This document shows, in pieces, positions 13,401-57,576 of a stretch of 64,000 nt of DNA; position 1 is the first letter of the stretch; every line of letters begins with the position of its first letter. The notes under the pieces were generated by a model. The model did not search any database, was not told the DNA's origin, and saw only the letters and a program-made list of their open reading frames with translations. The position numbers were made by a program, and so were the translations under genes. The DNA is from a virus (lineage: Duplodnaviria; Caudoviricetes), in the IMG/VR virus record IMGVR_UViG_3300028048_000065, positions 1 through 64,000 of that record, one strand, 5' to 3'.

Positions 13401-15098
13401 TTATGCGCTGTATGCTGCCTCGAAGCAGTCATAACGAGGAACATTAAGCTGTTCAAGAAGAGCCTCCATAGGATTGGTCTTATCAGACAAAACCATCTTG
13501 AGGAGATTCGTGCTATAACCCGAAACCATGATACAACCGCGGTCATCAACCTTGAAAGGCAGGGCAAGACGATTGCTGCAATTTACTCTCCAAAAGGTAA
13601 TAATTGGCATTTTATACCCAGCATTCTTGAAGCGCTGATTAATCTCCTGCATAAAGGTCTTGTCAACAGGAGTACGATAACTGTACCAGCCATGACGATT
13701 TACCTTAGCATCGCACATGGAATCGAACTCGCCATCAGAGACAATGAGAATGCGCTCAGGCAGGTCAGACTGGGGAGAATGGTTGTCAATAGCGGTCTTA
13801 AGAATCAGGTCAAAGACCTTTTCCAGATTGGTATTAGAGCCATCCTGACACTCCCAAGTCTTACGAAGCTTGTTACAGAGGCTATCGTTATCATTAAAGC
13901 GTACAATATGAGGGTCAGCACTAAAGGTGATATACTTGTTTGCAAAAGCACCCTTGAGATGGTCTGCGCAATAAATGGCGAGAGACATAGCAACATCAAT
14001 GCAACGCATATTAGTGTTACCACCAATACCACTCTCCATAGAACCAGAGCAGTCACACACGACAAGCATACCCTTATCATCGGGAATCATATCAGGCAAA
14101 GCCTTCCACATACCCTCAAGAGTATCATCAGCCCTCTGAGGAAGTCCATACCAACGACCACTCAAATTCATGTACTTATTGACAATATCACAGGGATTCG
14201 CCACAGAAGCATTAATCTTAGCCTCACCAGTCTTGAGAGCAGCAAGAAAAGCCTGACGGCGCTCAGTATCATGGCGCAGGAATGCCTTGTTGTAGTTAAG
14301 ATTAGCCTTAGAGGGAACAGTTTCGTAGTCGATAGCAGCCCAATTATCCGAAGACATCTTGCGCTCAACAACATCAAGATACTTACGAAGAGCAGACAGA
14401 GCCTTACGATAGTTGCGTTCAGTCATGTTCAACTGCTTTGCAGTCCAAAGACCATTATCACGGGTCTGCTTAGAGTGAGAATTGGGCTTATCAAGCCACT
14501 TTCCAAGCAGAGAAATAGACTTATGCTGCTTCATGTTCTCCATGTCCTCAGCAAACTGCTTCTTAAGGAAATCGCGGACAGCCTTTTCAGAAGTGGGGTT
14601 GCCACGGAACTGATAAAGCATATCATAGCGAGAATACTCGCCAATCAGAGGAACGAGCTTTGCAGCAATGCTTGCACCGCCATTCTTTACAAGGTCACGA
14701 ATGACAATCTGAGTGAAGCGACGCTCGCCAGCACCGCAACGAATGTCCATCGTATAGCCAAGGAAACGCATAGCAAGATAAGGATTCTCATTGAAAGCCT
14801 TGCGCCAATCGGTGACAATCTGCTTCTCGTCCAGAGAACGGTAGCTTACCAACTTGGTAAACATATCAAGAAGAGCAGAAGAAGTAGTGGAATATGCCAC
14901 AGCACCATTGGTGGTATAGGTCATATTGTCGGGCAAAGACTTAGGAACAACCGCACGAACATAGAAGCCCTTGTTAGTCTTTTCCATCTTGTCGAAGAAC
15001 TTCTCCTTGTCCGACTTCTGACGCATAGGCTTTTCGGGCTTAGGAGACCAAGCCTTGTTAGAGTTCTTCTTGGAATTCTTGTTAATGTTATTATACAT
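13401..15098 (-). CDS. DUF2828-family protein (helical repeat + vWA; Ro60/TROVE-like architecture)
   Basis: TTNGAVAYSTT, DIRCGAGER, SLLGKW, IDYETVPSKA, vWA MIDAS DCSGSM, TNLEKVF, ILIVSDGEFD, SGYS; start moved to ATG 15098 (GGAG RBS); codon usage looks highly expressed. Confidence 0.85.
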   Translation of the reverse strand: MYNNINKNSKKNSNKAWSPKPEKPMRQKSDKEKFFDKMEKTNKGFYVRAVVPKSLPDNMTYTTNGAVAYSTTSSALLDMFTKLVSYRSLDEKQIVTDWRKAFNENPYLAMRFLGYTMDIRCGAGERRFTQIVIRDLVKNGGASIAAKLVPLIGEYSRYDMLYQFRGNPTSEKAVRDFLKKQFAEDMENMKQHKSISLLGKWLDKPNSHSKQTRDNGLWTAKQLNMTERNYRKALSALRKYLDVVERKMSSDNWAAIDYETVPSKANLNYNKAFLRHDTERRQAFLAALKTGEAKINASVANPCDIVNKYMNLSGRWYGLPQRADDTLEGMWKALPDMIPDDKGMLVVCDCSGSMESGIGGNTNMRCIDVAMSLAIYCADHLKGAFANKYITFSADPHIVRFNDNDSLCNKLRKTWECQDGSNTNLEKVFDLILKTAIDNHSPQSDLPERILIVSDGEFDSMCDAKVNRHGWYSYRTPVDKTFMQEINQRFKNAGYKMPIITFWRVNCSNRLALPFKVDDRGCIMVSGYSTNLLKMVLSDKTNPMEALLEQLNVPRYDCFEAAYSA

Positions 15099-15111
15099 AA
15101 TATTCTCCATT

Positions 15112-15152
15112 CTCGACCGCTTAATTTATTTTGAGTTTTGCTGAGTCGGTCG
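15112..15152 (-). promoter_or_regulatory. cargo-less ACAGCAA-stem element (E0) in the 5' UTR of the DUF2828 gene
   Basis: CGACCG-ACTCAGCAA...CGGTCGAG directly before the RBS; matches E1-E7. Confidence 0.75.
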
Positions 15153-15169
15153 CTTGTTTTGATATTAGG

Positions 15170-22934: not shown

Positions 22935-23349
22935 TTTTTGTTTCTCCTTAAATTTGTCTAATTAAAATGTTTAAATTGTTTACTGTTACTATATATAAAA
23001 CTACAGGTGTAGCTTATTTTTTATTGTTTGAAACCAAAGCTACACCTGTATGGTTAGTAGCAAATATGACGAAGAGAATTAAAAATCTCAAGTCCTGCAA
23101 TATACCGTGCTTCTCGTAGACAATCTTCCATAAGAGCGTCCATTGCAGCGTGTCCTAAACCACCGTTCAAACTTGCGTCCCGCTCACAATCGTTGTAGAT
23201 TTGCTGAGCTCTTGCTTCAAATTCTTCATGGGTCATTCTGTTTTGGTTCCTTTTGCTGGGGTAAAATGTGTCTTGCGAAAGGACACATGAGGTACACTTA
23301 AGTTATTCGGAAACAAGGGAGAAGAATTAACTTCTCCCTTGAGAAGCGG

Positions 23350-23422
23350 CAGAGGAGATGGGACTCTCACCCATAACCTGCGGTTTTAGAGACCGCCGCT
23401 CTGATAATTGCGCTACTCCTCG
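23350..23422 (-). tRNA. amber-decoding tRNA (anticodon CUA), probably Gln
   Basis: cloverleaf: GAGGAG/CTCCTC acceptor with 1-72 mismatch, G73, anticodon arm GCGGT-CT-CTA-AA-ACCGC, T arm ATGGG/CCCAT with atypical loop. Confidence 0.85.
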
Positions 23423-23445: not shown

Positions 23446-23577
23446 CTCGACGCTAAAGAAAGGAAACTCACCACAAAGCTAATAAAACAACACACAAATT
23501 TGATTGAAGGAATCAATGATTTAGTAAATAAAATAGTATTTTTATCTAATTATAACCTATGTTGCTGTAAGCGTCGA
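23446..23577 (-). ncRNA. ACAGCAA-stem element E1
   Basis: TCGACGCT-TACAGCAA...AGCGTCGAG. Confidence 0.75.
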
Positions 23578-23681: not shown

Positions 23682-23744
23682 CTCGACCCTGTTTGAATTC
23701 TTAATTACCAGTTAAGTCCAAAAAAAGTTTGCTGTAAGGGTCGA
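23682..23744 (-). ncRNA. ACAGCAA-stem element E2 carrying a Thr(GGU)-type anticodon stem-loop
   Basis: TCGACCCT-TACAGCAA...CTTAA-CTGGTAA-TTAAG...AGGGTCGAG. Confidence 0.8.
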
Positions 23745-23791
23745 TAAAGAAAGGAAATTTTTATGATAAAAACTTATTAGGTTTTATCTTA

Positions 23792-24085
23792 TTAAACAAG
23801 AATCTGACTTGCAGTTTTCTTCTGCTCTCCCTCAAATTCATAATCAAGATGAGGATACATCTCAGGCTTTGTAATCTTGTTTTTACAAACAGGACACTGA
23901 TAAGTAAACTGTGGGGGATAAGTCATTAGCTGTGTAGGCTGTAGTTCCATCTCAGCCTTACACTTTGCACAATGAAGAGTCACCTTGAAAGTGCGAACTG
24001 CGTTTGTCTGTTGCTCATAAGTGTCAAGAACTGACTTATCAGCACCAATAATGGAAGGACCATTAGCAGTATTGATAATATCCAT
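23792..24085 (-). CDS. zinc-ribbon protein
   Basis: CAKC and CPVC. Confidence 0.6.
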   Translation of the reverse strand: MDIINTANGPSIIGADKSVLDTYEQQTNAVRTFKVTLHCAKCKAEMELQPTQLMTYPPQFTYQCPVCKNKITKPEMYPHLDYEFEGEQKKTASQILV

Positions 24086-24135
24086 TTAAAATGTTACTCC
24101 TTATTTTTGTTTTCAGGATTTATGCTATTTTTAGT

Positions 24136-24199
24136 CTCGACTCATTGTACAAATATAAACCTAAATTATATGTAGAAGAAAAATTGCTGTGAGAGTCGA
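24136..24199 (-). ncRNA. ACAGCAA-stem element E3 carrying a Leu(UAG)-type anticodon stem-loop
   Basis: TCGACTC-TCACAGCAA...TATAA-TTTAGGT-TTATA...GAGTCGAG. Confidence 0.8.
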
Positions 24200-24230
24200 T
24201 ATGGAGGAATCGAATGATTCATAATCATTG

Positions 24231-24306
24231 TGGCAGCCGATGAATGGGTCGAACATTCGTATGCGACGGTCAAAGCGTCGTGCCTTTACCACTTGGCTAA
24301 TCGGCT
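24231..24306 (-). tRNA. tRNA-Gln(UUG)
   Basis: CGACG-CT-TTG-AC-CGTCG, G73, CCA. Confidence 0.9.
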
Positions 24307-24445
24307 ATATTTAAAAAAACAAGAACTTCGGTTGGGACTTTCGATTCCTCACCCAACAACTCCAACATACCCTCCGAAGAGGTTGACCGACAGGAGGCAG
24401 TTTAATTTATTTATCGTGTTTTACTACCACGAAGTTCTTGGTTTT

Positions 24446-24516
24446 AGTGGAAGAGGGTAATCGAAACCCCACTTACGGAATCGGAGACCGTGGTTCTACC
24501 ATTAAACTACTTCCAC
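24446..24516 (-). tRNA. atypical tRNA, anticodon CCG (Arg) with U73, no encoded CCA
   Basis: GTGGAAG/CTTCCAC acceptor, D and T arms present, 31-39 mismatch. Confidence 0.6.
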
Positions 24517-24533
24517 ATTTATTTTATATACTA

Positions 24534-24562
24534 AGTATAGCACATATTTTGTAGTTTGTCAA
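24534..24562 (-). promoter_or_regulatory. sigmaA promoter upstream of the tRNA block ending in the CUA tRNA
   Basis: TTGACA-17-TATACT with TG. Confidence 0.75.
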
Positions 24563-24590
24563 GTCTTTTTTAGACTTTATTTTTCTCAAA

Positions 24591-24747
24591 CAAGAGAAGA
24601 AGTGCTCAACCATTGTGCAAAAAAGAAAGGAGGCGATTTCAAAATGAAACCCAAAAAAATGAACAGAAAGTTGAGAACAAACAAAGGAGAACTGTTAGTT
24701 ACAAACTATACCAATTGACAAAGCAATGGGAGCACGTTCTTCTCTTG
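24591..24747 (-). ncRNA. candidate sRNA with its own promoter (24759-24787)
   Basis: terminal inverted repeat; CU-rich anti-SD tracts. Confidence 0.5.
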
Positions 24748-24764
24748 ATTGTGACTTAATTATA

Positions 24765-25082
24765 TCACAGATTTTCAAGATTGTCAAGAGTTTTTTCAGA
24801 ATTATTTTTTGTGTTTTTAGAAACTCCATAAATCTCCTGAGTTACCTTGCGACGCTCAAGCTCATTCTTATAAGCCTTTTCACGAGCATCAACGTTCATG
24901 TCATTATATGCAGCAACATAAACTTCATTACCACACTCTTCACAGAACGCAATTTTTTCATCATAACTAAAATTAATTCCACGAATAGTAAGATTAACTT
25001 TAGCTACATCTGTATCATAGCCAACCATCTTATTACAATGAATACAAAAGACCGTTGGCTTAGAATTCTTAAAATCAAACAT
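24765..25082 (-). CDS. YgiT/MqsA-type zinc finger protein
   Basis: CIHC...IRG...CEECGNEVY. Confidence 0.6.
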   Translation of the reverse strand: MFDFKNSKPTVFCIHCNKMVGYDTDVAKVNLTIRGINFSYDEKIAFCEECGNEVYVAAYNDMNVDAREKAYKNELERRKVTQEIYGVSKNTKNNSEKTLDNLENL

Positions 25083-25139
25083 CAGAATAAAACTCCGTTT
25101 TTATTTATCTATTTTAACCCAAATTTGCAACTTTTTGGG

Positions 25140-25652
25140 TCAAATTTGACGGTTTTCGCGTGTATTTACCCAATATCCCGCCATGCTATATTTGGGGACA
25201 CCAGTAACCTCGGTTGCAATCATCTCAGGCCAAGGGAATTTATATTTCTTAGCTTCTGCTGTAGATTCAAATTCTACCTCAGCATAAGCCCAAGTATCAT
25301 CAACAATACTAATTTCAATAGGCTTTTGACCATCCATATAGACAGTAAAACGTTCTTTCTTGATAGCCTTTTTTCCTGTTTCCTTACTCATTTTAGCAAC
25401 AAACTTTCGAGCAGAAAAAAGCTTATCTTCAAACTCAAGCCTTTCAAGTCCATTACCAACTTTGTAAGTCAACTTGCCATTATTAGAGCCAGCTTTATAA
25501 CGAATACGAGTTTCGCTGATGATGTGATTATCAGAATCAACGATTATCTCAAGATAATACTGCCACAACTGCTCTCTAATAACGTTAGCTTTATCTGGAA
25601 AATTAAAATCTCCGCCCTTTAGAAGCCATTTACGTTCAATTTCTTTACTCAT
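25140..25652 (-). CDS. CYTH (triphosphate tunnel metalloenzyme) domain protein
   Basis: EIERKW, KLTYK, AEVEF, EVTG motifs. Confidence 0.85.
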   Translation of the reverse strand: MSKEIERKWLLKGGDFNFPDKANVIREQLWQYYLEIIVDSDNHIISETRIRYKAGSNNGKLTYKVGNGLERLEFEDKLFSARKFVAKMSKETGKKAIKKERFTVYMDGQKPIEISIVDDTWAYAEVEFESTAEAKKYKFPWPEMIATEVTGVPKYSMAGYWVNTRENRQI

Positions 25653-25722
25653 ATTTTACCTCATCAGGTTCATAGTTTTTGTTGAGGATATAATTATTGG
25701 GTCATTTCCTTTTCTATAAAGT

Positions 25723-25798
25723 TGGGGTCTGAGGCAAGAATCGAACTTGCGTAGCTCTGCTTATGAGACAGAGCAGGTAAACCAACAACCTCTCAGAC
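25723..25798 (-). tRNA. tRNA with CAU anticodon (Met or Ile2)
   Basis: loop CT-CAT-AA, TTCGA T arm, CCA; unusual C73. Confidence 0.8.
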
Positions 25799-25821
25799 AT
25801 ATTTCTATTTTATTTTTAAAA

Positions 25822-25951
25822 CTCGACACATTTTATACATTCTGTTGCTCTACCCGTTGAGCTATGTCCGCATATTGGTGCGGACAGCAGGATTCGAACC
25901 TACAACACACAGGCCCTTGCCAGTATTAAATTTTGTTGCTGTTAGTGTCGA
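25822..25951 (-). ncRNA. ACAGCAA-stem element E4 containing a circularly permuted tRNA mimic (YrlA-like)
   Basis: T arm GTAGG-TTCGAAT-CCTGC, acceptor TGTCCGC-ACCAATAT-GCGGACA, D arm GCTC-AACGGGTA-GAGC. Confidence 0.85.
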
Positions 25952-25983
25952 AGCAAAATGAGGAGGCTCATCACATCGAGCCG

Positions 25984-26060
25984 TGGTAGCTCGGGTGGAA
26001 TTCGAATCCACACTTGACGGATTTTGAATCCGCTCTCTCTGCCGATTGGAGTACCGAGCC
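25984..26060 (-). tRNA. tRNA-Leu(CAA) with short variable loop
   Basis: GCGGA-TT-CAA-AA-TCCGT, A73, CCA. Confidence 0.85.
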
Positions 26061-26462
26061 ATATTCAGTTTAGCAACTACTGACAGACCAGCTTTCCACA
26101 TATCTGCCCTCGGTTCGATTGGGGAGAGGTTTACAGGAATATTCCTACAAACTTGCACCCAATTATCTCGGTCATTTTCATTGCTAAACTTAATATTTGC
26201 TGTCTCTCCAAGCTGTCACCGCTAATATGGTTGTAGGTTCTGGACGGTCTGAACTTAGTTACGCCATACACACATCTTAACCTTGAGAGATAGTCCATCG
26301 GTTAAGCGAAGCTCTATCTTGATAAATTTGCAAGATACTATCATGCTTTCTGGTTCGAGGTGCTTATATCGGAGTCACTATAGCGCATTTTTTCATCCCC
26401 TTACACAATTTTCAAAGCAGCAACTCGTTTACTAATTGTTTATCGGTTTATCCGAACCTCGA

Positions 26463-26584
26463 TGGACCCTACAACTGGAATCGAACCAGAATACCTCCCC
26501 CGATGCGTCTGTTATCACTAAAGAGCTACTTTAGTGTTTGCTCAACAGTCAGTTAATAGGTGTGCTCCTTACACCAAGTAGGGA
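26463..26584 (-). ncRNA. tRNA-like RNA with ~60-nt insertion replacing the anticodon loop
   Basis: CCCTAC/GTAGGG acceptor, TGGTGTAAGGAGCAC D arm, CTGG-TTCGATT-CCAG T arm, CCA. Confidence 0.6.
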
Positions 26585-26705
26585 TATAAAAGGGAACCCA
26601 GCTTTATCTCGCCCTTAACGACCGTTCCCAATGCCGAACACCATACTCGTGCTTTTACTGCTTCTAATACTACGAATTTATTACGAGCAGCTATAATAAA
26701 TTCTG

Positions 26706-26792
26706 TGGCGGAGACAACAGGACTCGAACCTGTATTACCTTTCGGTAAGCTTGTTTAGCAAACAAGAGAGATGACCATTACTCCATGCCTCC
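26706..26792 (-). tRNA. tRNA-Ser(GCU)
   Basis: CTTGT-TT-GCT-AA-ACAAG, long variable arm, G73, CCA. Confidence 0.9.
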
Positions 26793-26807
26793 ATATAAGT
26801 GAGCAAA

Positions 26808-26931
26808 CTCGACACTTTTATTCAGGCCAGCCAGACTTAGACATTCCTTGCTCAAGGGTTATTCTAATAGGGAGTCGAACCCTACATGATGTTTTTTCAA
26901 GAACATTAAGTAAAATTGCTGTGAGTGTCGA
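26808..26931 (-). ncRNA. ACAGCAA-stem element E5 (Ser(UGA)-like loop plus T arm)
   Basis: TCGACACT-CACAGCAA...ATGTT-CTTGAAAA-AACAT...TAGGG-TTCGACT-CCCTA...AGTGTCGAG. Confidence 0.75.
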
Positions 26932-27078
26932 ATGGACATTAAACATTTACAAAAGAATCTGGTAGTCGGATTGAACTTCCTCTTCACCGACTGTTCGGAG
27001 GGTTAGTCACCTTAATCCTCTTGAAGAGTAGGATTCTCATACAGTCTAACCGTAGCATGAGTTATGCTTAATTACCTC

Positions 27079-27138
27079 AGTAACTAAGAAGTTGTTTAGA
27101 TAAGTTCGCTACGCTTACCTCGTGGAATATCCACGCAC
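27079..27138. repeat. 60-bp direct repeat, copy 1
   Basis: 59/60 identical to 27353-27412. Confidence 0.95.
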
Positions 27139-27352
27139 TCAGAGGTTGCTCATGAGCGATGTAACTCTTCTAATCGGAGCGAAGCTACCCCTTTCTTCAT
27201 ATTGAATAGAGTCAACCAAAGATGAACGCTCATTGGTAGCGCCTGTTGGTTTCGGAAATAGGTCCCGTCAGATTTTTCACATCACCGAGGTATCTGAAAC
27301 ATACCTTTGCCTTAACTTAAAGGATTAAGTTTGAGTGATTAATCACACCTAT

Positions 27353-27412
27353 AGTAACTAAGAAGTTGTTTAGGTAAGTTCGCTACGCTTACCTCGTGGA
27401 ATATCCACGCAC
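27353..27412. repeat. 60-bp direct repeat, copy 2
   Basis: 59/60 identical to 27079-27138. Confidence 0.95.
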
Positions 27413-27775
27413 GATTTTCCACCACTCGGGATTCTTATCACATTAGCACCCTGATAAGTTTCACCAACTATATATCGTGTTCTTCCCTTTTCATTTTCTG
27501 CTTCGAACGCCAATTGCTTGCGCTCTACTCCAAGACTTCGGACGGGAGTTGGGGCTTTAGCTTAACGGACTAAAGATGAGTTCAAATATATGGAACACCG
27601 ACAAGGCTTTAGCCATCCTTGCTGAATCGGGCAGTTAAATATAAGTTACATTCGCTATCTGCCAATTGAATGTAAATTATTGAATGGGTGATGTTTTGTT
27701 AGTCTATCACCAAGACTATGGGAGTTGGGTTGTTTTGAGACTCACCAACCATTCGTCTTCCTTGATTGTGTACTT

Positions 27776-27804
27776 AGTATAGCACATTTTGCTTTGTTTG
27801 TCAA
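27776..27804 (-). promoter_or_regulatory. sigmaA promoter upstream of the long non-coding region
   Basis: TTGACA-17-TATACT with TG. Confidence 0.75.
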
Positions 27805-27852
27805 GGGTTTTTAAAATATTTTTTAAAAATTTTTCAAAAACCTTAAAGCATC

Positions 27853-28141
27853 TAAAAACAAGATGTGGTATCTATGACCCAGTTTCATGGTGACTTATTA
27901 CAGTGGGAGCATCTAAAGGTTGTTACCCTTTACTTGAAGTCTCTCCCGACAACCCTTTTATCAAGGGCAGCGTCTAATCCGTATCATTCGGTTTTCCCGA
28001 CTCATTTCGGATTGCGGATTTCTTACCTACCGCCGTAATACCTACTGACCTGTCTATGCCAGCCCCGACCCGTCTTATCATTATACACAGACTATAAAAT
28101 CTGCTTTATTGAGTCAACTGCCGTTAGCCATCTTGTTTTTA
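27853..28141 (-). ncRNA. candidate ~290-nt structured ncRNA
   Basis: 13-bp terminal inverted repeat, promoter at 28152-28180 just upstream, raised GC, no ORF in the track. Confidence 0.55.
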
Positions 28142-28322
28142 GTGTAACTTAAGTATATCACAACATTTTGTGTTTGTCAAGGGGTTTTTAAACTTTTTTG
28201 AAAACTTTTTAAGAAATCTTTTTTTGTGACTTCTTAATTTATATATTAAGTATAGCACAGATTCCTAAGTTTGTCAAGAAGTTTAGAATAAAAATTTTCT
28301 TTTATTATGTATTGAAAATCAT

Positions 28323-28625
28323 TTAATCTTCAACCTCAATTCTAAGAATCTCTTTCTGGTTGGGCAACGTAATTGCTTCTAAACTAAGGTTTGTTTTAAC
28401 AAAATAATCTTGTGAAAATTCAATAGATAGATTGTTTAATGGTTGAACCATTTGAGTGATAAAACAATTCTTTCCATTTATTTTAGTTTTTATCTTTAGA
28501 GCAAAAGGCTTTCCAGAATCAAGGTCAAGACAAGACATATCAAAATAGCTTGTGCCGCAATACGGACATTTATTTAATTCAATATTAAATGGAGCCCCGC
28601 AGTTAATACAATTTCTACTTGACAT
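28323..28625 (-). CDS. zinc-ribbon protein
   Basis: CINCGAP and CPYCG. Confidence 0.6.
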   Translation of the reverse strand: MSSRNCINCGAPFNIELNKCPYCGTSYFDMSCLDLDSGKPFALKIKTKINGKNCFITQMVQPLNNLSIEFSQDYFVKTNLSLEAITLPNQKEILRIEVED

Positions 28626-28652
28626 GACAAATCCTTTTCTGCGTTAAATTTT

Positions 28653-28726
28653 CTCGACACTATATTATGTACGTTTATGAACCCAAATCATATGTATTTA
28701 ATATAAAAAGTTGCTGTGAGTGTCGA
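28653..28726 (-). ncRNA. ACAGCAA-stem element E6 carrying a Pro(UGG)-type anticodon stem-loop
   Basis: TCGACACT-CACAGCAA...TATGA-TTTGGGT-TCATA...AGTGTCGAG. Confidence 0.8.
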
Positions 28727-28861
28727 TAAGTAGTATGGTAAATGGTAGTCGGGTTTAGTATAAAGTTCACCGACCATTCGCTTAGCCTTCACTGTATCGT
28801 AGTTAAGGAGACCAAATATTACACGGGCAAAGTAAGTTTACACATTCTTGCCACTGGTGGC

Positions 28862-29800: not shown

Positions 29801-29929
29801 CTCGACTCTTTAATAAATTCACGAAGCTGTCTTACCACTTGACTAATCCTCTCAGGGAAAGGATTATGGAATCGAACCATAGTTTGCTTCTTTGGTAAGA
29901 ATATTATAAAAAATTGCTGTAAGAGTCGA
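29801..29929 (-). ncRNA. ACAGCAA-stem element E7 containing a circularly permuted tRNA mimic (YrlA-like)
   Basis: GAAGC/GCTTC stem, T arm TATGG-TTCGATT-CCATA, looped acceptor ATCCT/AGGAT, D arm GTC-AAGTGGTAA-GAC. Confidence 0.85.
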
Positions 29930-55717: not shown

Positions 55718-56206
55718 TTAGAATTTGCCAGAATCTCCAAAGCCCTCTGCTCCACGAGAAGTCTCATCAAGATTGTCAGTCTCTTCAAACTCTGTCAGGA
55801 TTACTGGTGCAAGCATAAACTGTGCAATTCGCTGCCCATGCTCAATAATCTGAGTCTCCGAAGAATCGTTATGGAGAGCTACAATGATTTCGCCACGGTA
55901 GTTTGAATCAATACATCCTACGGCGTTAGCAGGACGCAATCCCTGTTTCGTTGCAATACCACTGCGAGCATAAATAGCACCCCAATAACCATTAGGAATT
56001 GCCATTGCTAAACCTGTTCCAACCTTTACAGTGGTATGAGGAAGAATCTTCAAACCATTACGCCCTTCTGTGCTACCCCAAGGAATAAAAGTATCATTGG
56101 GAATGTCAGCATACAGGTCAAAAGCAGCGTCCTCTGCATGAGCCTTTGTCGGAATCTTTGCTGTCTCGGTCAACTTCTTAATCTTTACATTAACCATTGT
56201 AATCAC
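55718..56206 (-). CDS. dut: dUTPase
   Basis: AAFDL, ARSG, GCIDSNYRGE, RIAQ, RGAEGFGDSG. Confidence 0.95.
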   Translation of the reverse strand: MITMVNVKIKKLTETAKIPTKAHAEDAAFDLYADIPNDTFIPWGSTEGRNGLKILPHTTVKVGTGLAMAIPNGYWGAIYARSGIATKQGLRPANAVGCIDSNYRGEIIVALHNDSSETQIIEHGQRIAQFMLAPVILTEFEETDNLDETSRGAEGFGDSGKF

Positions 56207-57576
56207 TCTTCTTTCTTTAAATTGTTTTGTCTTTCTTTTGCTTGTCTAATAGCCTTTTCATGCTGATTCTTTAGTTTAAGAATCTCTGCGTGACGATAAG
56301 GAAAACCACGACGAATAAGATATTGAGTCTCTTTCTCATTTACCATGTTCCTTACATCACTTGCAATACACTTAGGCACATTTTCACTAATCCATACCAT
56401 CTTAAGCTTATTAATATAATTTTCAGGATAATTTTTAAGCTGGTCTTTAAGCTCTTCCATCATCTGATAATACCAATTCATAGCCGCAGTAGTACGAGTA
56501 TTAATATAATTTACAGTCTCAAGATAAAAACCCTTTACAATATCTTTGAAAGCATCGGGGACTTTAGAATAGAAATCATCATACTTGTCATAAGCCAGCG
56601 CTTCAATTACTGCATTAGGAGACACTTGCTTACTAATCACACGATGCATTAAAACGTAATCGTTTACTTTCACTTTCACGCGAAAATCATTATCGTTCTC
56701 ATCTCGCATACGGATAACCCAGCCCTCTTTTTCATTAGAAGAAAAGTTATCAACCTGAGCAAGAAGCGAATCCAGATTTTCAGAATCGTAATACTCTACC
56801 ATCTTACTATCATAAAGAGTAGCAATACTACGAACAGTATCAAAATCCATCTCAGTTCCATCAACACAAGAACGAGCAGAAATTAGATACATTCCCTCTT
56901 GTTCCTTAGTATAATGAACAACAATAGCATTTTTAGTAGAAATGAACTCAAAAATAAAAGTATAATCAGGATAATCCTTAATCATTTGCTTTTGAGAATC
57001 AGTCAAAAGACCAAATCCCTCTTTTAGTCTCCAAGATTCATTCAGACTAATAGCCTGAGAACCCGACCCAAAAATTGTTCCAGAACCATCAGAATTAGTA
57101 ATATATCGGAATTGCTGATAACTACCGTCCATTTTATTGGTAATCCAAATTTTTTGAGCAGAAGTATACTTTTCTCGAATAGCCTTTTCAGACCAATCAA
57201 AAGCATCTTCCCCCATATTCTTGAATTTATTTAGAGAACAAAGTACAAGTTCTTCTTTCTTTACATCAAAGACACAAGAACGACACTCTCGATAAAGTCC
57301 ATCATATAGATAGAAAAAGGTTTCCTCAGAATATCCCATATCACTAAGGTCAATAAAACCCTTGTAATGGAAAAGCACATATTCATTATCAATGGTCATA
57401 TCAAGAGGCTCAAATACATCAAGCAAATCCAAAAGACTTACAATATAAGCTTTTTCTGATTGTTCAGAAAGGTATTCAAGCCAATGCTTAAAATTCCAAT
57501 CTTGAATAGGATTGTGATTATAAGCATATAGAGCTTTTACTTCTTTAATATATCCAAGCAGAGGATGCTTCCACAT
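56203..57576 (-). CDS. T4 Rnl1-like RNA ligase
   Basis: KFKN, KMDGS, FEF, EGWV, RVKVK...Y. Confidence 0.85.
   Translation of the reverse strand: MWKHPLLGYIKEVKALYAYNHNPIQDWNFKHWLEYLSEQSEKAYIVSLLDLLDVFEPLDMTIDNEYVLFHYKGFIDLSDMGYSEETFFYLYDGLYRECRSCVFDVKKEELVLCSLNKFKNMGEDAFDWSEKAIREKYTSAQKIWITNKMDGSYQQFRYITNSDGSGTIFGSGSQAISLNESWRLKEGFGLLTDSQKQMIKDYPDYTFIFEFISTKNAIVVHYTKEQEGMYLISARSCVDGTEMDFDTVRSIATLYDSKMVEYYDSENLDSLLAQVDNFSSNEKEGWVIRMRDENDNDFRVKVKVNDYVLMHRVISKQVSPNAVIEALAYDKYDDFYSKVPDAFKDIVKGFYLETVNYINTRTTAAMNWYYQMMEELKDQLKNYPENYINKLKMVWISENVPKCIASDVRNMVNEKETQYLIRRGFPYRHAEILKLKNQHEKAIRQAKERQNNLKKEE

What the first reader, a model, noticed from the sequence alone, without database searches (positions are those of the whole stretch)
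23682..28726. Free-standing anticodon stem-loops as cargo: possible decoys for anticodon nucleases
E2, E3 and E6 each present a perfect 5-bp stem with a 7-nt loop obeying anticodon-loop rules. E2: CTTAA-CT GGT AA-TTAAG (Thr GGU, 23700-23716). E3: TATAA-TT TAG GT-TTATA (Leu UAG with G37, 24154-24170). E6: TATGA-TT TGG GT-TCATA (Pro UGG with G37, 28676-28692). E5 has an imperfect CT TGA AA(A) Ser loop. U33 and the expected position-37 purine are present each time, and none of these anticodons belongs to a full tRNA in the window. Inference: decoys or sponges for host anticodon nucleases (PrrC/RloC, VapC, PARIS AriB-type) or for tRNA-modifying enzymes such as TrmD.
Basis: partly seen in the sequence, partly recalled or inferred. 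Interest (0 to 1): 0.9.

Follow-up and report, generated by a model that had tools for sequence, protein, structure and literature searches.

The report
Anticodon-loop mimics on phage Ro60-partner RNAs
A giant cattle-gut phage makes small RNAs that share one conserved "handle" and display pieces of tRNA, including an anticodon-arm look-alike whose three "anticodon" letters differ from phage to phage. The handle travels with a Ro60-shaped phage protein, so these are probably its partner RNAs rather than free-standing decoys.

Summary
The hairpins exist as described, on the minus strand, which is the strand of all ten tRNA genes. They are not free-standing. Each sits inside one of seven elements that share a covarying 7-8 bp closing helix followed by an unpaired ACAGCAA.

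- **Partner protein.** An eighth, variant handle lies in the leader of a DUF2828/vWA gene whose model matches Ro60 (Z 17). Across 80 viral loci holding that gene, 183 of 191 handles lie on the gene strand and 111 lie within 1 kb upstream.
- **E2 type supported.** Among 90 dereplicated small elements, 25 hold a hairpin with a 7-nt loop C-U-N-N-N-A-A, against 0.5 in shuffles. The stem covaries. The triplets look like real anticodons: N34 is U or G, and N36 is U in 24 of 28. One scaffold shows all four bases at position 35.
- **E3/E6 not supported.** They are one paralogous pair in mRNA leaders, and their orthologues are not consistently 7-nt loops.
- **E5.** It is a permuted tRNA mimic with its own anticodon arm.
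- **Function.** The decoy role is untested.

The handle equals that of the Dictyostelium Class I RNAs. I found no published description. This scan has already noted the same system in at least 38 other genomes.

The parts
23683..23744 (-). E2: handle (UCGACCC/GGGUCGA helix plus CUUACAGCAA) carrying an anticodon-arm mimic at 23700-23716 (CUUAA-CUGGUAA-UUAAG). It ends 6 nt before tRNA-Ile(UAU).
   Evidence: Orthologues keep everything except loop position 35 (G, U or C; A in L171). It belongs to the CU-NNN-AA class.
24137..24199 (-). E3: handle with hairpin 24154-24170 (UAUAA-UUUAGGU-UUAUA). It lies in the leader of a 97-aa zinc-ribbon ORF (23792-24085).
   Evidence: It is a paralogue of E6. Orthologues have UUUUGGU or a 9-nt loop.
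28654..28726 (-). E6: handle with hairpin 28676-28692 (UAUGA-UUUGGGU-UCAUA). It ends 29 nt before a 100-aa zinc-ribbon ORF (28323-28625).
   Evidence: Orthologues have UUUAGGU, or a disrupted stem in G001.
26809..26931 (-). E5: handle with a permuted tRNA-like cargo. It has an anticodon arm at 26889-26906 (8-nt loop CUUGAAAA), a T arm (UAGGG-UUCGACU-CCCUA) and a closed acceptor-like hairpin. It lies upstream of tRNA-Ser(GCU).
   Evidence: Relatives have the 7-nt loop CUUGAAA, or AUGGAAA in G005.
25823..25951 (-). E4: handle with a tRNA body that lacks an anticodon loop. It has a T arm, a 7-bp acceptor stem closed by ACCA-AUAU, and a D arm.
   Evidence: Rfam YrlA RF02553, 37.1 bits, E 2e-5, below the gathering score of 69. 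The acceptor stem covaries in G005.
29802..29929 (-). E7: handle with a second tRNA-body mimic (T arm, closed acceptor, D arm). It has its own TTGACA-N17-extended -10 promoter upstream.
   Evidence: z -3.9.
23447..23577 (-). E1: handle with a long A/U-rich cargo, upstream of the suppressor-type tRNA(CUA).
   Evidence: It is conserved in relatives.
15112..15153 (-). E0: variant handle (6-bp helix CGACCG/CGGUCG plus AC-UCAGCAA, no hairpin cargo). It lies in the leader of the DUF2828 gene, and its 3' arm ends 3 nt before the GGAG ribosome-binding site.
   Evidence: In 61 of 80 related loci an element ends within 400 nt upstream of the gene start, median 74 nt.
13401..15110 (-). Gene for a DUF2828 + DUF7788/vWA protein (569 aa as called; the conserved Met is residue 5). 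It is the predicted partner of the handle.
   Evidence: Pfam E 7.6e-28 and 7.4e-39. The model matches only Ro60/TROVE chains at the top: Foldseek E 7e-8, VIA Z 17.0 and 13.6. The gene is present in all five relatives.

Best explanation
E2, E3, E6 and the E5 arm are the variable display parts of a family of small RNAs built like Y RNAs.

- **Handle and partner.** The two RNA ends pair in a 7-8 bp helix, followed on the 5' strand by an unpaired (C)U-N-ACAGCAA. This handle is most likely held by the phage's Ro60-shaped DUF2828/vWA protein.
- **What is displayed.** The interior protrudes and presents a piece of tRNA. E4 and E7 present the elbow and acceptor body. E5 presents a permuted whole tRNA. 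E2 presents an anticodon arm alone.
- **E2 type.** This module is a real anticodon-arm mimic: 5-bp stem, loop C32-U33-NNN-A37-A38. The triplet sets its specificity and changes quickly between phages. Its likely job is to engage a factor that reads tRNA anticodon loops, whether a nuclease, a modification enzyme or a synthetase domain, on or near the ring protein.
- **E3, E6 and E0.** These lie in mRNA leaders. They more likely let the protein control those genes, and their anticodon look is unproven.
- **Maturation.** Several elements end a few bases before a tRNA gene, so RNase P cleavage of that tRNA would set their 3' ends.

Shown here: the handle, its covariation, its linkage to the gene, the Ro60-like fold, and the excess and make-up of the CU-NNN-AA loops. 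Inferred: protein binding, the identity of the engaged factor, and the outcome.
For: - **Handle is real.** Seven copies in a 6.5-kb array, against 0.13 expected. Position N pairs with N' in all seven, using all four bases.
- **Helix covaries.** In relative G005 the whole helix changes to UAAGC/GCUUA or UAAAC/GUUUA while ACAGCAA stays.
- **Arm pairing is specific.** ACAGCAA has a perfect 7-nt complementary arm in 174 of 597 occurrences, against 269 of 10126 for permuted 7-mers.
- **Linkage to the gene.** In 80 viral loci found through the DUF2828 protein, 183 of 191 elements lie on the gene strand and 111 lie in the 1 kb upstream. In 61 of 80 loci an element ends within 400 nt of the start.
- **Fold.** The top 13 Foldseek and top 10 VIA matches are all Ro60, full length, Z 17.0 to 10.9.
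- **tRNA-like cargo.** E4 matches the YrlA model through its tRNA-like part.
- **Anticodon-loop class.** 25 of 90 dereplicated small elements have CU-NNN-AA loops, against 0.54 +/- 0.73 (maximum 4) in 300 shuffles.
- **Stem and triplets.** All five stem pairs show changes on both sides. Triplets are UUU 9, GUU 7, GCU 3, UGU 2, UGA 2 and five singles. N34 is U or G in 27 of 28, and N36 is U in 24 of 28.
- **Position 35.** One scaffold, ACUUAA-CUGNUAA-UUAAG, carries G, U, C or A at position 35 in phages whose proteins are only 43-93% identical.
Against: - No binding, expression-end or cleavage data exist. The RNA-library data are assembled contigs and do not show transcription.
- The protein model is middling (pLDDT 69, pTM 0.58). 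Pfam TROVE does not match any of these genomes.
- The Y-RNA motif GNCGAA that Ro60 contacts is absent from the handle.
- About 70% of small elements carry other cargo, so anticodon display is one option and not the rule.
- The stems are A/U-rich, unlike most real anticodon stems.
- The set used for the pair counts was selected for having the hairpin, so its 99% pairing is partly by construction.
- A strain seen in a bovine-gut library has GUC in the E2 loop with two uncompensated changes listed in the 3' stem. The table was truncated, so compensation may be hidden.
Confidence: 0.6

Rival explanations
1. One reading: the anticodon-arm modules are decoys or sponges. They soak up host anticodon nucleases (PrrC/RloC, PARIS AriB, VapC types) and so protect the tRNA pool. 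The Ro60-like ring would only stabilise the RNA or add avidity.
For: - The triplet varies while the rest of the loop is fixed, and position 35 takes all four bases on one scaffold. This pattern fits an arms race.
- The commonest triplet is UUU (Lys), which from established knowledge is the target of PrrC and PARIS AriB. GUU fits the G-U-N preference of colicin E5-type nucleases.
- The phage invests in tRNA supply and repair: a 10-tRNA array and an RNA ligase (PF09414, 56203-57576).
Against: - Nothing here bears on nucleases directly.
- Known anticodon nucleases often depend on tRNA modifications and on the whole tRNA.
- This window displays GGU, UAG, UGG and UGA. As far as I know, none of these is a classic nuclease target.
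- No rule links displayed triplets to the phage's own tRNAs.
- E3/E6 are not conserved as 7-nt loops.
Confidence: 0.2
2. Tether rather than decoy. [quoted passage not shown] Candidates include the t6A37 or m1G37 machinery, RNase P, the CCA-adding enzyme and a ligase. This would build a particle that checks, repairs or degrades damaged tRNAs during infection.
For: - Ro60-like fold.
- Cargo covers all parts of a tRNA: body in E4 and E7, whole in E5, anticodon arm in E2.
- 24 of 28 displayed triplets end in U before A37-A38. From established knowledge this is the loop context of t6A37-bearing tRNAs.
- E3/E6 have G36-G37, the TrmD context.
- Published Ro60/Y RNA particles work as tethers (PMC4201824, PMC12135203).
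Against: - No RtcB and no canonical Rsr in these genomes.
- No enzyme gene is consistently next to the elements in the loci I read.
- Why a tether would need a fast-changing triplet is unclear.
Confidence: 0.2
3. The loops are U-turn (YUNR) kissing loops that pair with another RNA through the exposed triplet. The partner could be a codon-like stretch or another loop, so the resemblance to anticodon loops is structural convergence.
For: - C-U-NNN-A-A is a U-turn loop.
- From established knowledge, antisense RNAs use YUNR loops for fast pairing.
- The variable triplet would retarget the pairing.
Against: - Three bases give little specificity.
- N34 is almost never A or C, and N36 is mostly U. 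That bias mirrors anticodons rather than free pairing partners.
- Anticodons complementary to these triplets, which would begin with A, are rare in bacteria (own knowledge).
Confidence: 0.08
4. The hairpins have no anticodon-related role. They are leftovers of tRNA genes captured by the handle within tRNA arrays, or simple spacers. E3, E6 and E0 act only as leader structures through which the protein regulates translation of the downstream genes.
For: - The elements lie inside tRNA arrays and several cargos are plainly tRNA-derived.
- E3, E6 and E0 sit directly before open reading frames, and E0 abuts a ribosome-binding site.
- E3 and E6 orthologues lose the 7-nt loop.
- Family-wide, Y-U-NNN-R loops other than CU-NNN-AA are not in excess: about 9 against about 7.
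Against: For the E2 type, the loop flanks and the stem pairing are kept across phages whose partner proteins are only about 40% identical, while the stem sequence changes. This indicates selection on the arm itself.
Confidence: 0.15

Closest known systems
Ro60/Rsr with Y RNAs (bacterial and phage YrlA, YrlB, Yrn1; Thermus phage phiLo Ro60 with Yrl1/Yrl2). Chen et al. 2014 PMC4201824; PMC12135203; Rfam RF02553.
   Same: - A ring protein with helical repeats and a vWA domain.
- Several small RNAs encoded beside its gene.
- Each RNA has a terminal helix joining its ends plus a variable module.
- At least one module mimics a tRNA body with a closed acceptor stem (E4, E7).
- Other RNAs of the set are simple hairpins.
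   Different: - The protein is Pfam DUF2828/DUF7788, not TROVE.
- The handle is a helix plus unpaired ACAGCAA, not the GNCGAA-type motif.
- Only E4 touches the YrlA model, and below threshold.
- As far as I could find, a module that is an anticodon arm alone with a variable triplet is not described for Y RNAs.
- In this phage most copies lie in the tRNA array 8-15 kb from the gene.
Dictyostelium Class I RNAs (Aspegren 2004; Kjellin et al. 2021 PMC7919456; search pattern in PMC5054030; Rfam RF01414).
   Same: - Same handle: a short covarying stem joining the 5' and 3' ends, followed at once by the 11-nt motif CCUUACAGCAA.
- The published pattern is GTTGRCCTTACAGCAA ... GTCAACTG. E2 reads UCGACCCUUACAGCAA ... 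GGGUCGAG.
- Variable interior, and similar length for the small elements (42-65 nt against 62-63 nt for E2 and E3).
   Different: - Class I RNAs are reported as unique to dictyostelids and bind the RRM protein Rnp1A.
- No tRNA-like or anticodon cargo is described for them.
- The Rfam model did not hit these phage elements at E up to 10.
- I did not test whether dictyostelids have a DUF2828 protein.
Anticodon-arm mimicry in the E. coli thrS mRNA operator, which binds threonyl-tRNA synthetase (own knowledge).
   Same: A hairpin with an anticodon-like 7-nt loop outside a tRNA is used to engage a protein that reads the anticodon arm.
   Different: It is a cis-regulatory element of one gene with a fixed anticodon. 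It is not a family of trans RNAs on a shared handle with variable triplets.
Phage counter-measures to tRNA-cleaving defences: T4 Pnkp/Rnl1 repair against PrrC, and T5 tRNA-Lys variant against PARIS (own knowledge; overview in PMC7824862).
   Same: The conflict is over anticodon loops. This phage also carries a tRNA array and an RNA ligase.
   Different: Those systems replace or repair whole tRNAs. No isolated anticodon-arm RNA or Ro60-like partner is involved.

Membership tests
tRNA anticodon arm (structural rules) | 5-bp stem, 7-nt loop, U33, purine 37, pyrimidine 32 | tested here: met
   E2, E3 and E6 meet all the rules. E5 has an 8-nt loop here and a 7-nt loop in relatives.
tRNA anticodon arm (structural rules) | The rules are kept in orthologues and across the family more often than chance | tested here: met
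   This applies to the E2 type only. CU-NNN-AA occurs in 25 of 90 elements against 0.54 in shuffles, and the stem covaries. For E3/E6 it is not met: G003/G004 E3 has a 9-nt loop, G001 E6 is disrupted, and other Y-U-NNN-R loops are not in excess.
tRNA (Rfam RF00005 / Aragorn) | Full cloverleaf detected | tested here: not met
   No tRNA call overlaps E1-E7.
YrlA-type Y RNA (Rfam RF02553) | Covariance-model score at or above the gathering score (69 bits) | tested here: not met
   E4 scores 37.1 bits, E 2e-5. E2, E3 and E6 have no hit at E up to 10.
YrlA-type Y RNA (Rfam RF02553) | GNCGAA(N)G motif near the 5' end, in the Ro60-binding helix | tested here: not met
   The handle is a helix of free sequence plus ACAGCAA. 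The helix changes wholesale between phages. Motif definition from PMC4201824.
YrlA-type Y RNA (Rfam RF02553) | Encoded beside a Ro60/TROVE gene | tested here: not met
   Pfam TROVE is absent from this record and from five related records, four of them 99-100% complete. The linked gene is DUF2828/vWA, which has a Ro60-like predicted fold.
YrlA-type Y RNA (Rfam RF02553) | tRNA-like module with T arm, D arm and closed acceptor stem | tested here: met
   Met for E4 and E7, and loosely for E5. Not met for E2, E3 or E6.
Dictyostelium Class I RNA (Rfam RF01414) | Short terminal stem followed by the 11-nt motif CCUUACAGCAA | tested here: met
   E2 matches 11 of 11 bases, the other elements 9-10 of 11. 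Pattern from PMC5054030. Invariant positions are as described in PMC7919456.
Dictyostelium Class I RNA (Rfam RF01414) | Covariance-model match | tested here: not met
   RF01414 is not among the matches at E up to 5 or 10, in the window or in L128.
Ro60 (TROVE + vWA ring protein) | Helical-repeat ring followed by a vWA domain, similar to solved Ro60 structures | tested here: met
   The top 13 Foldseek matches (E 7e-8 to 1.6e-5) and top 10 VIA matches are all Ro60. Z is 17.0 over 366 residues at rmsd 6.4, and 13.6 over 394 residues. Model pLDDT is 69.
Ro60 (TROVE + vWA ring protein) | Binds Y-type RNA through the handle | not testable with these tools
   Only genetic linkage is available.
Anticodon-nuclease decoy | Binds or is cut by an anticodon nuclease and protects the cognate tRNA | not testable with these tools
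   No assay was possible. No published precedent was found.

The most novel reading that the evidence does not exclude
The particle is a programmable, anticodon-specific counter-defence. Each phage displays on its Ro60-like ring the anticodon arm of the tRNA species that its host's tRNA-cleaving defence attacks. The displayed arm captures or misdirects the nuclease, or marks the cut tRNA for the ring and the ligase. Single-base switches at position 35 retarget it as hosts change. The same handle in social amoebae would then point to an ancient, shared RNA-protein module that has gone unrecognised.
Probability: 0.15. Interest if true: 0.9.

Novelty: new variant of a known kind. Interest (0 to 1): 0.72.

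Why it matters
- **A second lineage of Ro60-type particles.** It would have a different protein family and a different RNA handle, and it is common in large gut and rumen phages.
- **A new way to use tRNA mimicry.** A tRNA is split into parts and the anticodon arm alone is displayed with a rapidly changing triplet.
- **A concrete handle for experiments.** It bears on how phages deal with tRNA-directed defences or tRNA-modifying enzymes.
- **A candidate explanation for an old puzzle.** The Dictyostelium Class I RNAs have the same handle, and their function has been open since 2004.
- **Practical use.** The handle and the fixed C-U...A-A frame make these RNAs easy to find and to reprogram for tests.

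Tried and rejected
- **Known RNA families.** Rfam at gathering thresholds gave only tRNAs. At E up to 5-10 it added YrlA for E4 and a RAGATH-33 near-hit, and nothing for E2, E3 or E6. RF01414 was not hit.
- **Canonical Ro60 or RtcB.** Pfam TROVE and RtcB were absent from this record and five related records.
- **Sequence search of the protein against PDB.** No hit. The relationship shows only by fold.
- **Exact-pattern scan of viral contigs.** Most of the 87 single matches lacked the 3' arm and were chance hits.
- **Minimum-free-energy folding to catalogue loops.** Too noisy with A/U-rich stems. I replaced it with a direct stem/loop scan and shuffles.
- **Complementary repertoire.** The idea that displayed anticodons complement the phage tRNA set holds here but fails in G001.
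- **Readings considered and dropped:**
  - Promoter or terminator: there is no U-tract, and covariation argues for a paired strand.
  - MITE or recombination site: strand bias with the gene, plus tRNA-like cargo.
  - tRNA intron or permuted-tRNA splicing: no second half or splice logic for E2, E3 or E6.
  - Self-cleaving ribozyme: no match to known cores.
- **Protein Atlas look-up.** It returned only viral DUF2828 clusters and gave no information on eukaryotes.
- **Sequencing runs.** RNA-library contigs from bovine gut cover the region. Because they are contigs they show neither transcription nor RNA ends.

Full report
**Setting.** The window is the first 64 kb of a 149-kb viral record, 69% complete, about 35% G+C. 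Near-identical DNA occurs in many bovine-gut runs. Genes and all ten tRNAs lie on the minus strand. Strong TTGACA-N17-TGnTATAAT-type promoters recur on that strand (family D1).

**Observation.** Read on the minus strand, the three hairpins are exactly as described:
- E2, 23700-23716: CUUAA-CUGGUAA-UUAAG.
- E3, 24154-24170: UAUAA-UUUAGGU-UUAUA.
- E6, 28676-28692: UAUGA-UUUGGGU-UCAUA.

E5 has AUGUU-CUUGAAAA-AACAT, an 8-nt loop. None of the four triplets is an anticodon of the tRNAs that Aragorn calls in the whole record.

**What the hairpins sit in.** Each lies inside one of seven elements with a shared frame, 5' UCGAC-N-CU-Y-ACAGCAA ... N'-GUCGA-G 3'.
- Seven matches were found, all on one strand within 6.5 kb, against 0.13 expected.
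- N pairs with N' in all seven (G-C, C-G, U-A, A-U), and the closing helix forms in every fold.
- Four close relatives of about 216 kb have the same six or seven elements in the same order.
- In a more distant relative (G005, partner protein 56% identical) the whole helix is replaced by UAAGC-N-C/G-N'-GCUUA or UAAAC/GUUUA, while ACAGCAA stays.

So the constant features are a helix of free sequence, an unpaired ACAGCAA two bases after it, and a G after the 3' arm. The interiors differ:
- E4 and E7 are tRNA bodies without an anticodon loop: T arm, acceptor stem closed by a loop (ACCA-AUAU in E4), and D arm.
- E4 hits Rfam YrlA at 37 bits, below threshold.
- E5 is a permuted tRNA-like RNA with its own anticodon arm.
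- E1 is long and A/U-rich.
- E2, E3 and E6 carry one small hairpin.

**The partner.** I tested it.
- It is Pfam DUF2828 plus DUF7788, with a weak vWA match.
- It has no sequence match in PDB.
- Its AlphaFold model (37-sequence alignment, pLDDT 69) matches only Ro60/TROVE chains at the top, over its full length. Foldseek gives E 7e-8 to 1.6e-5 for 13 chains. VIA gives Z 17.0 to Thermus phage phiLo Ro60 and 13.6 to Xenopus Ro60.
- Canonical TROVE and RtcB are absent from this record and from five related records, four of them essentially complete.
- The gene's own leader holds an eighth, variant handle (CGACCG-AC-UCAGCAA ... CGGUCG-AG) that ends 3 nt before the ribosome-binding site.

I then fetched 80 viral loci through the protein alignment; their proteins are 36-94% identical to the query. 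I scanned them for [7-nt arm][2 nt]ACAGCAA followed by the complementary arm.
- 177 elements were found, against 9 in reversed sequences.
- 183 of 191 lie on the gene strand, and 111 lie in the 1 kb before the gene.
- In 61 of 80 loci an element ends within 400 nt of the start, median 74 nt.
- ACAGCAA has a perfect arm in 29% of its occurrences, against 2.7% for permuted 7-mers.

This is the arrangement known for rsr and Y RNA genes (PMC4201824), with a different protein family and a different handle.

**Testing the anticodon-loop claim across the family.** Among 90 dereplicated small elements (45-85 nt), I counted those with a hairpin of at least 4 bp and a 7-nt loop.
- 25 have the loop C-U-N-N-N-A-A, against 0.54 +/- 0.73 (maximum 4) in 300 dinucleotide-preserving shuffles of the interiors.
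- The looser rule Y-U-NNN-R-N gives 34 against 7.3, so nearly all the excess is the CU-NNN-AA class.
- An alignment of 28 distinct members shows invariant C, U and A, A around three free positions.
- All five stem pairs show changes on both sides. That set was chosen for having the hairpin, so the shuffle test is the fair one.
- The triplets are UUU 9, GUU 7, GCU 3, UGU 2, UGA 2, and AUU, GAU, GCA, UUC, GGU once each.
- Position 34 is U or G in 27 of 28. Position 36 is U in 24 of 28. This is the make-up of real bacterial anticodons for ANN codons, and from established knowledge the U36-A37-A38 context of t6A37.
- E2 belongs to this class.
- Its scaffold ACUUAA-CUGNUAA-UUAAG recurs with N = G (window), U (G001, G003, G004, and L141 with a 43%-identical protein and an unrelated helix), C (G002) and A (L171).
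- In 24 loci the element nearest the protein gene is of this type, and 41 of 80 loci have at least one.

**E3, E6 and E5.**
- E3 and E6 align with each other and are paralogues. Their loops read UUU-N-GGU with N = A, U or G.
- In G003 and G004 the E3 loop is 9 nt. In G001 the E6 stem is disrupted.
- A few independent G36-G37 loops exist elsewhere (UUUGGGA in L114, UUAUGGU in L130), but there is no family-wide excess.
- Both lie in the leaders of small zinc-ribbon ORFs, as E0 lies in the leader of the ring-protein gene.
- I therefore treat their anticodon look as unproven, and a regulatory role as at least as likely.
- E5's arm is a clean 7-nt CUUGAAA in three relatives and AUGGAAA in G005.

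**How it most likely works.** By analogy with Ro60 and Y RNAs, and from the linkage above, the ring protein holds the handle and the interior is displayed. The cargos together cover the parts of a tRNA, so the particle most likely engages proteins that recognise tRNAs. The E2 type would engage one that reads the anticodon loop, with the triplet as selector.

The fast-changing triplet and the predominance of UUU and GUU lean towards a conflict with tRNA-cleaving defences. The U36-A37-A38 bias fits modification enzymes equally well.

The idea that displayed triplets fill gaps in the phage tRNA set holds in this record but not in G001, which displays GUU and encodes tRNA-Asn(GUU).

E1, E2, E4 and E5 end 6-24 nt before a tRNA gene, so RNase P would set their 3' ends. 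This is inference.

**Comparison with what is known.**
- Function-wise the closest match is Ro60 with YrlA/YrlB-type Y RNAs, including phage examples (PMC4201824, PMC12135203). Membership fails on the model score, the GNCGAA motif and the TROVE gene.
- The handle itself equals that of Dictyostelium Class I RNAs. The published search pattern is GTTGRCCTTACAGCAA ... GTCAACTG (PMC5054030). The described invariant motif positions fit (PMC7919456). That paper reports the class as absent outside dictyostelids. The Rfam model does not reach the phage copies.
- I found no paper on DUF2828 function, on phage anticodon-arm decoys, or on this handle in phages.

**Status within this scan.** Earlier notes report the same handle and protein pairing in at least 38 other genomes, some noting anticodon loops. 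So this is not new to the scan. Those notes are not independent evidence, and the tests above are my own.

**Limits.**
- There is no experimental evidence of binding, expression ends or activity.
- The protein model is of medium confidence.
- The loci come largely from one large metagenome collection, and dereplication was by k-mer sharing.
- The RNA-library data are assembled contigs.

Noticed in passing
window 27980-28128 (-): Full-length match to Rfam RAGATH-33 (RF03102) at 118.6 bits, just under its gathering score of 120.4. It lies behind its own promoter, between the large ORF-free region and E6.
   Followed up: no
window 26061-26705 and 26932-27790 (-): Two ORF-free, hairpin-rich stretches with no Rfam match. 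The second holds a 60-nt direct repeat (27079-27138 and 27353-27412, 98% identical). Contigs from two bovine-gut RNA libraries have their highest word depth here. One form skips 27074-27346, that is, one repeat unit and the spacer.
   Followed up: partly
window 26960-26997 and 28743-28780 (-): A repeated hairpin, GUCGG...CCGAC followed by UACCA, lies directly upstream of E5 and of E6. It looks like an acceptor-type minihelix with a CCA end.
   Followed up: no
window 23348-23422 (-): A tRNA with anticodon CUA (amber suppressor type; Aragorn labels it Pyl) lies directly after E1.
   Followed up: no
G000:C1:139629-139791 (-), outside the window: A ninth handle (UCGUCGC-UA-ACAGCAA ... GCGGCGA-G) with a 163-nt A/U-rich interior, far from the tRNA array.
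   Followed up: no
window 25140-25652 (-): A 170-aa ORF inside the tRNA/sRNA array begins MSKEIERKWLL, which resembles the ExExK signature of CYTH triphosphate-tunnel enzymes. Pfam gave no hit at E up to 0.01.
   Followed up: partly
window 56203-57576 (-): A 457-aa ORF matches the Pfam RNA_ligase domain (PF09414, 28.1 bits, just over the cut-off). It fits a tRNA-repair capacity. No RtcB was found in the record.
   Followed up: partly
window 23703-23708 (E2 loop and 3' stem): A related strain in two RNA libraries from one bovine-gut sample (same study) reads CUGUCAA (GUC, Asp) in the E2 loop, with the 3' stem changed from UUAAG to CCAAG. Matching 5' stem changes were not in the truncated table, so it is unclear whether the stem is kept.
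   Followed up: partly
L114 4199-12135 (IMGVR_UViG_3300031555_002144): A distant phage (partner protein 44% identical) carries eight handle elements around its DUF2828 gene, several with tRNA-body cargo. It is a good second model system.
   Followed up: no
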